A stretch of DNA of 64,000 nucleotides from Pocillopora damicornis (taxonomy: Eukaryota): assembly GCF_003704095.1 (NCBI RefSeq), contig NW_020844748.1:124001-188000 (forward strand), in the 5' to 3' direction. The notes under the pieces are model-generated. The model was not told the origin of the DNA. It made no database searches and saw nothing but the letters and a program-made list of their open reading frames with translations. Numbering within the stretch: position 1 is the stretch's first letter; each line of letters begins with the position of its first letter. A program made the position numbers and the translations under genes. Shown one piece after another: positions 13,222-16,344 of this stretch.

Positions 13222-13228
13222 TATAAAA
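13222..13228 (+). promoter_or_regulatory. TATA box of the ShKT/damicornin-like gene
   Basis: TATAAAA ~80 nt upstream of ATG 13305. Confidence 0.55.
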
Positions 13229-13304
13229 GAGTTCGTTCAGATTTGAAAATTCAGACGCGAAGCAGTAGCAGAAAGACAATAAAGGTTAATTCACAGCACT
13301 GAAA

Positions 13305-14646
13305 ATGTCCCAATCATTTTTATGGTAATGTTGAATGTTTTTCTGTTTACTTCAGTAACTGCTATTCGAGGAAATGGAGAAGGACAAGGCAACTTTTCTA
13401 ATGATGGTAAAAAACGTATTTTGGTTTTTGTTTTGTTTTTTGTTCCTTGTCAGATTGTTTTTGCGTGCTAAGTTGTATTAAGAACTTAGAATTTATTTAT
13501 CCGTTTACGAGTGATAAGATTTGACTTGATCTAATACACACGATTTTGAGTTTTTTGTTTTCTTTGTGGGATTTCTCTTTGTCTCTATTTTCAATTGTAA
13601 GGATTGAAACGAAATCAACAGTTCTACCGCACCTTTTAAATAAACACAAAGTAGCTTTATTTCTTTTGCGCCTGCTCTTACAATTTATGCCTATTGTTTT
13701 AATACCTTGTGGTTCGTGTATTTGACAAAAGTCCTGCTTTCCCTTTTACCTTCAGAAGTACAATTAGAAGAAACATTAGATGACTCAAGTAAGAACAATT
13801 AAAACTAATGCAATCTAATTTACCGTATCTTGATTCTGACAATGTCGAGAACATACAAGCAAAATCATAGCTATTGTAAAATAGACCCTATTCGAGGAAC
13901 ATACAATGTCCTTTTTCCAATGGTAATGAAAGTAAATTCAGTCGTGGCCATGACCAATTTTAAGTGAAAATTATCACGTGATTTCTAATGGTACAACGAG
14001 ACGAACAACCATAAGAAAATGACTGCATAAACACGAGTATATTTTACGAAGCGCATGTTGATTGACGCATTCAACGTGTTTGCAATCGAGTGAGTCGATA
14101 CAGAGTAAATTTGAAAACATTTGAAAATATTACGAGTGCCTTTTTGCCTATTATGTCCCAGATAAAATCAATTTTGTCACCGGCCAGGAGCCACCTATTT
14201 TTTACCCTCTGTGTGAAAAATCTCGAAACACCTTATAATGGTTTAGAAAATGATCGCATTTTTTCTTGGAATTGAGCATTTTGGAAAGACGATTGTATAA
14301 TATGAACTAGGCCAGGAGATTTTATAATATGTTGACTAAGACTTATTGTTATTTAAAATACTCTAGAAATGAAGATGTTGAATATATATCTTAAAGCTTG
14401 AATTTCGAGAAAGAACGTAAAGAGCTAAGAACAAAACATTTTGTCAAGTATCTAAAAAAAGTCAATTTTACAACGAGTTATTTACTCATTCAAATAACAT
14501 GATACCTCATCGAGTTTCTTATGTAATTCCGTAGAATGTAGAGATCTCAGACCAAGGTATTGCAGAGCAATGTGGAAAAATGCTTCCACATCATCCATGT
14601 TCGGACACTAATGAGAGAACGCAAGAAAACTTGCATGTATTGCTGA
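13305..14646 (+). pseudogene. ShKT-fold (damicornin-like) prepropeptide gene, frameshifted (pseudogene or assembly error)
   Basis: Exons 13305/13322-13406, 13756-13788 and 14535-14646 are joined by phase-1 GT-AG introns. They give (MSQSF/)MVMLNVFLFTSVTA-IRGNGEGQGNFSNDEVQLEETLDDSK-CRDLRPRYCRAMWK/CFHIIHVRTLMRE[R]KKTCMYC*. Frameshifts lie in T5 (13317-13321) and A5 (14576-14580); CGC replaces the expected Cys4 at 14620-14622. Confidence 0.75.
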
Positions 14647-16344
14647 TCCGGATTCCGTGGTAGGTATGTTTAGATAACTTTGGGGTCTATTGATAAGAAT
14701 TTTGCCCACTTGCTTGGCTTTTTCTCTGGAATTAGTTTAAAGGCTCTTTCTTCATTTACTCTATCTGACTTACCAACCTCGCATGGCAGTTCCATCTGTT
14801 TTGCACTATAACAAAGTGATATAACTGTGCATTACTCAGGGTTAGGATTGAGTGGGGCAGCGACCATATTAGGAGTAATATGATATACTGTGTGTCAAAT
14901 GCAAATACCAAAGCTCTTTTTTGTAACTCCTCCATGGAAGTCATGTAAAGGAAAAGGTCGACGCGAGAATAGCCATATCACATCGGATTGACCGTGATTC
15001 CTGTGTAGAGAACGGGGTCTCAACTACACGTGTACAAAACTATGATTATGGGATGTTTTGCTACTTTTGTTCAACCTGTTGTGTTAACTATATTCAAATT
15101 TCATGAAGAGAGGATACTGTACCAAACAGAATTATGCATTCTTATAATTAGCAGAAGATAACCTTTCCGCTTTTACATAGCCTTTCATAAACATGAGGTT
15201 TCAAGTCAAAATAAATTGTGGATTTAGAAAGACCCGACTTTAAGACTAAATTAGAATAATTAAGTGCCATGTCAACGCCTATGTTTAAGGCATCATAAAA
15301 TGCCATACATGCATGAATTACAACAGCTTTTAGGGAACTTCGGCAAACGAAAGTGAAAGACAACTTTAGTAAACAAAAGTGAAAGACAACTTAAATTAAC
15401 AAAAGTGAAGAAAACCGTATTGAATGGAAGTGAAATCATACATTGTTTTGAAAATGGACGAGTAAGTTGTTACCGTACTTTTTCATAGCATTCTTTCATA
15501 CAAAAATATTTTCTTCTAAAGAGGCCACAAAAATTACAGTGGCTCACGAATTTTGACAATTTTAATCTTTTTTTTTCTCTAGAGAGTGACTGTCCTCTTT
15601 ATGGAGAATATTCAGCATAACCAGACGGAAACTTACTGAGAAGCTTACATACAGTAAATGATGCCATATTTGATACTTGCATGTACTCTGAGAAATTCAT
15701 TAAACACACCTTAACGCTTCTGCGCGTCCATTTTGTCTTTTTGATAGCCCTGCCCTGACTCAACTTCCATTTTGATTATTTTGTTCCAGAAATGATTGTA
15801 AATATATGAAAATCGTATAAGTGAACTAATGGACACTAATTAAGCAGAAGTGAAAACTACATTAATTTATTAGAGTGTAATATATCACTTTCCTGAGTGC
15901 AACACAGAATGCAAGGTTTTCTCTGCTTTCAGTAAAATTATGAATGGAAGACATTTTCTAAAGACAAATTCCAACAGCTCATCCCAAATTTCAATTTCCT
16001 TGATTCAAAAGATGCATGATTATATAAAATATGTAAATTGTCTTTTTTTGTTTGTTCGTTTATTTTTTTTTTTTTGGTTGGTCTCTATGCTTTTATTATT
16101 CCTCTAAAGACTAACGATATGGTCAAAATGTTGTAAATCGTCAACGAAACTCGTGCCCATCGGTTCGTATGCCAACTTTTTTGGTTCAGGCTCCCCAGGA
16201 AGTGCTCCTGAAACTTTCATCGGATATACAAACTTATCCATCACTTGTCTATCAGTGGATATAAAAAGATGGTGAATTTTAAAAAACGTTCGTTGGATAA
16301 AAGTTCTTTCTCCGTTAACTCTCTCACAGAACGTTTTCCAAAGT

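What the first reader, a model, noticed from the sequence alone, without database searches (positions are those of the whole stretch)
13222..14670. Hidden damicornin/ShKT-like gene missing from the ORF track, broken by homopolymer frameshifts
Seen: TATA box, a signal-peptide exon, a 33-nt acidic micro-exon (EVQLEETLDDS) and a Cys exon join via phase-1 introns. Adding one base at A5 (14576-14580) gives CRDLRPRYCRAMWKKCFHIIHVRTLMRE[R]KKTCMYC*, which is ShKT spacing with Cys4 as CGC. Adding one T at 13317-13321 extends the signal peptide to ATG 13305. Recalled from memory and needing verification: the coral antimicrobial peptide damicornin has signal + acidic propart + cationic ShKT-like peptide with C.DLR, CR and R.LMR motifs. 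Inference: a recently inactivated paralogue, a null allele, or partly sequencing error. The Cys-to-Arg substitution favours real decay.
Basis: partly seen in the sequence, partly recalled or inferred. Interest (0 to 1): 0.75.

Follow-up and report, generated by a model that had tools for sequence, protein, structure and literature searches.

The report
Dead coral ShKT-like peptide gene
A Pocillopora coral carries the remnant of a gene that likely once made a secreted damicornin-like antimicrobial peptide; its frame breaks recur in every other sample checked, so it is likely an old dead gene copy, an ordinary outcome for such peptide families.

Summary
The gene model is in the sequence: TATA at 13222, first ATG at 13305, two phase-1 GT-AG introns, a 33-nt acidic exon and a cationic Cys exon. 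That exon changes frame near 14576-14580 and has Arg where Cys4 is expected. The host is Pocillopora.

The breaks are not sequencing errors. Both, and the Arg, recur in 3 of 3 laid runs that cover them, from three studies. One run is a haplotype about 2% diverged; another may be this DNA's source. All 18 exon-1 variants (169 contigs) start at the downstream ATG. No spliced contig, intact copy or clear constraint was seen.

Kinship to damicornin/AmAMP1 rests on motifs read by eye from a paper's table and a post-hoc null (0 of 150). Pfam and PDB gave no relevant hit, but that table lists no domain for intact AmAMP1 either.

Best reading: a duplicated pseudogene, apparently fixed in the sampled Pocillopora. 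It is not damicornin itself, and it lacks six Cys and a dibasic site. Real but modest.

The parts
13222..13229 (+). TATA box (TATAAAAG); start of transcription inferred about 25-30 nt downstream
   Evidence: sequence; no RNA start shown
13305..13328 (+). First ATG after the TATA box, likely the ancestral start; now a 7-codon upstream ORF that overlaps ATG 13322
13322..13406 (+). Open part of exon 1: shortened signal-like hydrophobic stretch plus Gly-rich start of the propart (28 codons + 1 nt)
   Evidence: called as an ORF in 169 public contigs, 18 variants
13407..13755 (+). Intron 1, GT-AG, phase 1, 349 nt (predicted; splicing not observed)
13756..13788 (+). Exon 2, 33-nt acidic micro-exon (propart); a nonsense variant at 13761 in one low-depth contig of run X18
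   Evidence: shares the 5-mer ETLDD with the Porites compressa damicornin homologue in PMC12745922 Table S7
13789..14534 (+). Intron 2, GT-AG, phase 1, 746 nt (predicted); no hidden acidic or dibasic exon found
14535..14575 (+). Exon 3 before the break: Cys1 (14537) and Cys2 (14561), cationic (4 K/R, 1 D/E); this frame runs on to a stop at 14609-14611
14576..14580 (+). A run at or near which the ShKT-like frame changes; same length in all three runs that cover it
14581..14646 (+). Exon 3 after the break (other frame): Cys at 14581, 14632 and 14641, Arg at 14620 where Cys4 is expected, stop directly after the last Cys; 5 K/R, 1 D/E, 2 His
   Evidence: Arg unchanged in X6, X8, X15
15210..15215 (+). 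Nearest AATAAA after the stop, possible polyadenylation signal (untested)

Best explanation
This is likely a dead duplicate of a secreted ShKT-like peptide gene in Pocillopora; its two frame breaks and missing fourth cysteine are present in every other sample that covers them, and its ancestor was likely a damicornin/AmAMP1-type cationic antimicrobial peptide. Inferred ancestral mechanism: transcription from the TATA promoter, splicing of three coding exons, export by a signal peptide, removal of an acidic propart that masks the cationic domain, and folding of a ~36-residue three-disulfide peptide that attacks bacterial membranes in mucus or ectoderm. Present state: a scanning ribosome would start at ATG 13305 and stop after 7 codons (inferred). 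A ribosome that leaks to ATG 13322 would make a 64-residue product with a short signal, no dibasic site and only two cysteines, which cannot form the ShKT fold (length and Cys count computed; translation not shown). The locus therefore likely drifts neutrally, while intact damicornin elsewhere in the genus likely covers the function.
For: SHOWN. Anatomy. Host genus: Wnt-16 exons are identical to Pocillopora records (153 of 153 residues; identical apart from a read-through intron; names). Lesions are real and shared: table 4 lists no indel at either run in X6 (study P2, may be this DNA's source), X8 (organism B, study P3) or X15 (study P6; 23 differences in 1161 non-coding bases). X15 records 3 and 6 bridge both places with more than 70 letters on each side. 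18 of 18 exon-1 variants start at ATG 13322 and none is extended or spliced. No clear constraint: X15 has 3 of 240 exon bases changed against 23 of 1161 non-coding, Fisher p=0.60; there are 7 amino-acid variants in the 28 exon residues against 8 in 21 residues of intron read-through, p=0.44. One contig of X18 carries a nonsense change in exon 2. Not a damicornin allele: no protein of 24-79 or 80-2000 aa shares three 5-mers with the X-read exon 3; that damicornin is in that collection is my assumption. FROM PAPERS. Damicornin layout is signal, acidic proregion, dibasic site and a 40-residue cationic six-Cys peptide (PMC4306955 passage). AmAMP1 and the Porites homologue show ETL(DD) in the propart, C-x-[DN]-L...[YF]-C, and (AmAMP1) His, Arg and Met before Cys4 (Table S7; compared by eye). 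Nematostella ShK-like2 isoforms and ShK-like3 use three coding exons, and ShK-like3 is called a probable pseudogene (10.1101/2020.05.28.121442 section 8). Joint motif: 0 of 150 simulations.
Against: No database search gave a ShKT or damicornin hit: Pfam on separate pieces and on the X-read, PDB, 1.84 billion representatives, Atlas. Family kinship therefore rests on post-hoc motifs and a by-eye comparison. No intact orthologue was found, so the ancestral state is not shown. The propart is much shorter than in AmAMP1, and the ETL motif sits at its end rather than its start. The constraint tests have little power; exon density is nominally lower (1.25% against 1.98%). The X18 nonsense change is in a contig of depth 3.4 with a second change 3 bases away and may be an error. 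Promoter and all four splice dinucleotides are still intact, which is more than a very old pseudogene would keep. Only 4 of 24 listed runs were laid (2 of 6 RNA holders). The three-exon layout also fits a neuropeptide ancestor.
Confidence: 0.62

Rival explanations
1. Same dead gene, but its ancestor was a ShK-like neuropeptide or venom peptide (Nematostella ShK-like1/2/4 type), not an antimicrobial peptide.
For: Three coding exons match ShK-like2b and ShK-like3. The short propart and missing dibasic site differ from damicornin/AmAMP1. AmAMP1 itself is reported as a possible neuropeptide (PMC12496222 passage).
Against: Strong positive charge on both exon-3 pieces. The ETLDD 5-mer and C-x-[DN]-L motif are shared with the coral AMP homologues. 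There is no Lys-Tyr/Phe pair between Cys3 and the Cys4 position (sequence; the dyad rule is recalled, not from a call). PMC12745922 found no ShK neurotoxins in Acropora or Porites. Nematostella ShK-like precursors also have dibasic sites, so the missing site does not favour them.
Confidence: 0.14
2. The locus is still expressed at a stage or tissue not sampled and makes the 64-residue frameshifted precursor, releasing a two-cysteine cationic peptide with a function of its own.
For: The predicted spliced frame from ATG 13322 is open for 64 codons and ends in the last exon. TATA and splice sites are intact. Exon changes are nominally fewer than non-coding ones. AmAMP1 is up-regulated in late planulae (PMC12924552 passage), so adult RNA could miss it. 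The Porites compressa homologue in Table S7 also departs from the family pattern after Cys2.
Against: An overlapping upstream ORF in good context precedes ATG 13322. The signal is short and there is no dibasic site. Three variants change signal residues (F9S, T13I, A14S) and one removes the second Met. A nonsense variant is seen in X18 (weak). None of 5 candidates is a spliced product.
Confidence: 0.1
3. There is no gene; the TATA box, splice sites and cysteine pattern are a chance arrangement in AT-rich intergenic DNA.
For: No homology hit in any database. No spliced contig. Two frame changes have to be assumed. The motifs were picked post hoc.
Against: Joint motif in 0 of 150 simulations. 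Beyond that null: matching phase-1 sites, an acidic micro-exon with a family 5-mer, first ATG and hydrophobic run after a TATA box, a stop directly after CxxC, and neighbouring secreted Cys-peptide genes on the same strand.
Confidence: 0.07
4. A null allele or assembly error: intact alleles segregate in Pocillopora, or one species keeps the gene.
For: The breaks lie in or near homopolymer runs. One variant (P0002, 1 contig) shows a length change in the A run just after donor 1. Exon 3 was checked in only three runs.
Against: 0 of 3 covering runs differ at either break or at 14620. 0 of 18 exon-1 variants are extended. No intact exon-3 protein was found at 24-2000 aa.
Confidence: 0.05
5. The frame is rescued during expression by ribosomal frameshifting or polymerase slippage on the A run.
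For: The break sits at a homopolymer.
Against: The run is only 5 long and the heptamer is not of the canonical X XXY YYZ form (sequence; rule recalled). Rescue would still leave five cysteines, the exon-1 break and no dibasic site. The RNA-run contig shows no length change.
Confidence: 0.02

Closest known systems
Damicornin (Pocillopora damicornis, F1DFM9) / AmAMP1 (Acropora millepora, XP_029188806.1) coral antimicrobial peptide family
   Same: Signal-like stretch, acidic propart with an ETL motif, single C-terminal cationic ShKT-spaced domain with C-x-[DN]-L...[YF]-C and His/Arg/Met before the Cys4 position; same host genus as damicornin.
   Different: Two frame breaks, five instead of six Cys, no dibasic site, no C-terminal Gly amidation signal (a damicornin feature), and a much shorter propart. 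Cys spacing 7, about 6, 12, 3, 2 against 8, 8, 13, 3, 2 in AmAMP1. No three shared 5-mers with any protein searched, so not a damicornin allele. No activity or expression shown.
Nematostella ShK-like3 (probable pseudogene) and ShK-like2 neuropeptide
   Same: Three coding exons per isoform; lineage-specific duplicate that decayed.
   Different: ShK-like3 is called a pseudogene for low expression, not for frame breaks. No sequence comparison was possible (figures not held). No alternative first exon was identified here.
ShK-type potassium-channel toxins of sea anemones (Pfam PF01549)
   Same: Terminal x-xxx-C-xx-C-stop spacing of the ShKT motif (screening pattern), except for the Cys4 position.
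   Different: No Pfam or PDB hit; no Lys-aromatic dyad between Cys3 and the Cys4 position (dyad recalled); the fold cannot form as the gene stands.
Digitiferin (Acropora digitifera)
   Same: Secreted coral AMP with a ShK-like motif (PMC12496222 passages).
   Different: Digitiferin has an 81-residue mature part with 10 Cys and is reported as distinct from damicornin/AmAMP1; this locus has one ~36-residue domain.

Membership tests
damicornin/AmAMP1 coral AMPs | N-terminal signal peptide | tested here: inconclusive
   Hydrophobic run present (Kyte-Doolittle 2.19-2.71) but out of frame with the first ATG; no SignalP available
damicornin/AmAMP1 coral AMPs | Acidic proregion | tested here: met
   Exon 2 has 4 D/E and no K/R in 10 codons; ETLDD shared with the Porites homologue; shorter than in the family
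damicornin/AmAMP1 coral AMPs | Dibasic processing site before the mature peptide | tested here: not met
   Single Lys across intron 2; no hidden exon found among 3 candidates
damicornin/AmAMP1 coral AMPs | Six cysteines in ShKT spacing in one frame | tested here: not met
   Two Cys in one frame, three in another, Arg at 14620; same in X6, X8, X15
damicornin/AmAMP1 coral AMPs | Cationic mature region of about 40 residues | tested here: met
   4 K/R and 5 K/R against 1 D/E each in the two pieces, counted separately
damicornin/AmAMP1 coral AMPs | C-terminal Gly amidation signal (damicornin; not in AmAMP1 as printed in Table S7) | tested here: not met
   Stop follows the last Cys directly; feature
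damicornin/AmAMP1 coral AMPs | Significant sequence similarity or tree placement | tested here: inconclusive
   No hit; by-eye motifs only; no alignment score or tree computed
damicornin/AmAMP1 coral AMPs | Expression in ectoderm and antibacterial activity | not testable with these tools
   RNA-run contigs were unspliced and cannot show expression
ShKT domain (PF01549) / ShK-type Kv blockers | Pfam ShK match | tested here: inconclusive
   No match for the pieces or the X-read, which lacks Cys3 and Cys6; intact AmAMP1 also has none listed
ShKT domain (PF01549) / ShK-type Kv blockers | CxxxCxxC followed by a stop within two residues | tested here: not met
   CxxC-stop present; the first Cys of the motif is Arg; pattern
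ShKT domain (PF01549) / ShK-type Kv blockers | Lys-Tyr/Phe functional dyad between Cys3 and Cys4 (recalled) | tested here: not met
   No Lys in that stretch
duplicated (non-processed) pseudogene | Disabling lesions with introns retained | tested here: met
duplicated (non-processed) pseudogene | Lesions shared across individuals, not errors | tested here: met
   3 of 3 covering runs (one may be the source), 18 of 18 exon-1 variants
duplicated (non-processed) pseudogene | Neutral evolution | tested here: inconclusive
   p=0.60 and p=0.44, low power
duplicated (non-processed) pseudogene | Functional parent copy in the same genome | not testable with these tools
   No genome held; none in the window; damicornin is expressed in P. 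damicornis (PMC4178034 passages) but parentage is not shown

The most novel reading that the evidence does not exclude
The locus marks a second, undescribed ShKT-like defence-peptide lineage of pocilloporid corals that has no close intact copy on record and was lost before the sampled Pocillopora lineages split, a genus-wide loss of an immune effector inside an unannotated cluster of secreted Cys-peptide genes. A bolder form: the frameshift created an expressed two-cysteine peptide, as may also have happened in the Porites compressa homologue.
Probability: 0.2. Interest if true: 0.55.

Novelty: new member of a known kind. Interest (0 to 1): 0.3.

Why it matters
Only three coral antimicrobial peptides are described (damicornin, AmAMP1, digitiferin). 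A decayed, divergent relative in Pocillopora would show that this family undergoes birth and death like anemone ShK-like genes. It gives a syntenic address (beside a galactosyltransferase, Wnt-16 and a NUDT16-like gene) at which to look for natural intact orthologues in related corals. It also shows that short multi-exon peptide genes escape Pfam and ORF-based annotation. It is not a new mechanism, and a dead gene has no direct effect unless the loss or the truncated product proves functional.

Tried and rejected
Whole genome: none held, so parent copy and copy number are untested.

Paralogue search in the window by blastn and tblastn of the separate pieces: self hits only.

Pfam: 0 of 3 pieces and 0 for the X-read. 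PDB sequence searches: nothing relevant (best E 0.045, hepatocyte growth factor, chance). Representatives search with the 34-aa frame: 0 hits. Atlas: no usable hit. Word-index searches with the X-read at 80-2000 and 24-79 aa: no candidate; the tool calls the long-range miss weak evidence.

Metagenome scan with a 17-nt pattern: 19 loci, 0 of 19 matched the window beyond 22 bases; all dropped as chance.

Expression: the 7 contigs of X15 and 2 of X18 cover upstream DNA and introns, cross splice sites unspliced, and show no joints. They look like DNA or pre-mRNA and show neither expression nor silence.

Hidden propart exon: 3 phase-compatible candidates, none acidic or dibasic. A hydrophobic ORF at 12693-12866 was considered as an alternative first exon and left open; my script read it in the wrong frame, so its phase was not properly tested.

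Damicornin sequence: the original paper is not held. The single paper matching a motif search was unrelated. Reviews gave features only. The alignment in the PMC12745922 supplement is a figure and was not visible. bioRxiv supplements are closed and may hold the Nematostella sequences.

Earlier findings of this scan: 4 look-ups, nothing.

Neighbour at 12026: single-sequence model of low confidence (pLDDT 61), no Foldseek match, best VIA Z 2.5; uninformative.

Literature searches (open-access library only) listed no paper whose title or abstract start describes this locus. I did not read most of them, and the family paper (Mason 2021) was seen only as a citation.
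Full report
OBSERVATION. The features are in the sequence at the stated places. A TATAAAAG lies at 13222 and the first ATG after it is 13305, with A at -3. Its frame closes at 13326-13328. The hydrophobic stretch and the first donor (GT 13407) are in another frame, with ATGs at 13322 and 13328. Intron 1 (13407-13755) has a long polypyrimidine tract. 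Exon 2 (13756-13788) is 33 nt and acidic. Intron 2 runs 13789-14534. Both introns are phase 1. Exon 3 holds two Cys in the incoming frame, which stops at 14609-14611, and three Cys in another frame that begins to matter at the A run 14576-14580, has Arg at 14620 and stops directly after the last Cys. Two refinements: the residue across intron 2 is a single Lys, so there is no dibasic site; and the exon-1 break can only be placed between the two ATGs, because the hydrophobic frame is open and more hydrophobic upstream of 13322.

CHANCE. The N-terminal motif alone is common (2 in the window, 0.39 per simulated 64 kb). The joint pattern appeared in 0 of 150 third-order Markov simulations. The motifs were chosen after seeing the locus, so I take this as support, not proof. 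The promoter, phases and acidic micro-exon are further features outside that null.

HOST AND SETTING. No genome is held. Wnt exons in the window cluster with, and are identical to, Wnt-16 records of Pocillopora verrucosa, P. damicornis and P. meandrina, so the host is Pocillopora. RNA holders labelled coral metagenome agree. Two intact, unnamed secreted Cys-rich peptide ORFs lie upstream on the same strand, at 5208 and 12026, the second about 840 nt before the TATA box. No paralogue of the finding lies in the window.

ERROR, ALLELE OR FIXED LESION. Of 24 listed runs, 20 hold the stretch, 14 with at least half its words; 5 are marked as possible sources. I laid 4 of the 24. X6, X8 and X15 cover both breaks and position 14620; X18 covers neither break. 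None of the three shows an indel at either run or a change at 14620. The only indels are at 13030 and 14308 in X15, both non-coding. X6 may be this DNA's source. X8 is from another study and species label. X15 is from a third study and differs at 23 of 1161 non-coding bases. Separately, exon 1 read into the intron has been called as an ORF in 169 public contigs as 18 variants, all starting at ATG 13322, none extended and none spliced. Gene callers can prefer a downstream start, so this is supporting only. Sequencing error is excluded for practical purposes and a rare null allele is unlikely. The lesions predate the split from a haplotype about 2% diverged.

SELECTION AND EXPRESSION. X15 differs at 3 of 240 exon bases against 23 of 1161 non-coding (p=0.60). 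Exon 1 shows 7 amino-acid variants in 28 residues against 8 in 21 residues of intron read-through (p=0.44). By my reading, the exon changes at 13758, 13761, 13788 and 14612 alter codons, and 13761 gives a stop in one contig of depth 3.4 that may be an error. These tests have little power, and the exon rate is nominally lower. For contrast, the 12026 neighbour shows 0 changes in its Cys region against 10 in its tail among 15 listed members. Contigs from the two RNA runs are unspliced and cover introns and upstream DNA. They cannot show expression or silence, and AmAMP1 is stage-specific (PMC12924552, passages).

KINSHIP. No search gave a family hit. This does not refute the model: the pieces are 13-21 informative residues, the X-read lacks two Cys, and intact AmAMP1 has InterProScan result 'None' in Table S7 of PMC12745922 (supplement part read). 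By eye, that table's AmAMP1 and Porites compressa damicornin homologue share with this locus an ETL motif in the propart (ETLDD with the Porites protein) and C-x-[DN]-L...[YF]-C; AmAMP1 also shares His, Arg and Met before Cys4. No alignment score or tree was computed. Damicornin's features (signal, acidic proregion, dibasic site, 40 residues, six Cys, amidation) come from review passages (PMC4306955; PMC4881601); its sequence was not seen in any call. Because no protein of 24-2000 aa shares three 5-mers with exon 3, the locus is not an allele of damicornin, assuming damicornin is in that collection. Nematostella ShK-like2 isoforms and ShK-like3 have three coding exons, and ShK-like3 is called a probable pseudogene (10.1101/2020.05.28.121442, section 8 and passages). 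That is a precedent both for the layout and for decay.

MECHANISM. Shown: the anatomy, the lesions, their sharing, the host genus. Inferred: the ancestor was a secreted precursor whose acidic propart masked a cationic three-disulfide peptide, most likely antimicrobial like damicornin/AmAMP1; it arose by duplication and died. Today a ribosome would most likely stop after the 7-codon upstream ORF. Leaky initiation at 13322 would give a 64-residue, two-Cys product without a dibasic site that cannot form the ShKT fold. I put this at 0.62. Neuropeptide or venom ancestry gets 0.14, a functional truncated peptide 0.10, chance 0.07, intact alleles somewhere 0.05 and recoding 0.02.

MEMBERSHIP AND NOVELTY. 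It likely descends from something that worked like damicornin/AmAMP1, but it fails six Cys in one frame and the dibasic site, so I do not file it as a member. It is a new member of a known kind, the decayed cnidarian ShKT-like peptide gene. Six searches of the open-access library listed nothing that describes this locus. I saw listings for most; passages for PMC12496222, PMC12745922, PMC11767717, PMC12028987, PMC12924552, PMC11269664 (reference only), PMC4178034, PMC4306955 and PMC4881601; one section plus passages of the Nematostella preprint; and nothing but citations of Vidal-Dupiol 2011 and Mason 2021, which may list further homologues. Figures and bioRxiv supplements were not visible and may bear on the sequence comparison.

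VERDICT. Interest 0.3. The boldest reading not excluded is a genus-wide loss of a second defence-peptide lineage, or an expressed frameshifted peptide (probability 0.2, interest 0.55). The intact unnamed neighbours at 5208 and 12026 deserve their own look.

Noticed in passing
window 12026-12385 (+): Intact single-exon 119-aa ORF: signal-like start, 10 Cys in CxxC/CxxxC spacing, KR, then a tail; TATA-like at 11974, AATAAA at 12510. In the collection with a 70-member cluster and no name among 40 read. Among 15 listed members there are 0 changes in the Cys region against 10 in the tail and 1 in the signal, which suggests purifying selection. No Pfam, PDB or fold match. Likely an unannotated secreted peptide and perhaps more interesting than the finding; likeness to acrorhagin I/Aeq5-like peptides is recalled and untested.
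   Followed up: partly
window 5208-5465 (+): Intact 85-aa ORF: strong signal, 8 Cys in similar spacing, KR, acidic tail. Weak likeness to the 12026 peptide (24% over 68 aa, E 0.13) and the same AG-ATG context, so probably a paralogue with a 5' UTR intron. Exact sequence not in the collection; Atlas best 0.79 to eclosion hormone, a lead only.
   Followed up: partly
PMC12745922 Table S7: The Porites compressa damicornin homologue, as trimmed in that table, follows the family pattern to Cys2 and then lacks the expected later cysteines: a gene-model error or a parallel decay at a similar place.
   Followed up: no
window 24929-28158 (+), 31505-38252 (-), 44180-44581 (-), about 52138-52395 (-): Neighbours: galactosyltransferase PF01762, Wnt (named Wnt-16 in Pocillopora), NUDT16-like PF22327, and a kinase-like exon that looks like Raf (recalled, not tested). 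Useful as synteny anchors.
   Followed up: partly
window 12693-12866 (+): A short ORF with a hydrophobic stretch between the 12026 gene and the TATA box. Could be chance in a 3' UTR, or an alternative first exon as in Nematostella ShK-like2; not properly tested.
   Followed up: partly
window 13407-13414: Five of 18 exon-1 variants (P0001, P0004, P0005, P0006, P0013; 63 contigs) differ at donor position +3, and one (P0002) has a length change in the following A run; may mark a distinct lineage.
   Followed up: no
window 29344-29444 and 34075-34174: Two runs of N (scaffold gaps), far from the finding.
   Followed up: no
window 15790-15857, 47668-47891, 57539-57651: Short dispersed repeat shared by three places (up to 90% over 40 nt).
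   Followed up: no
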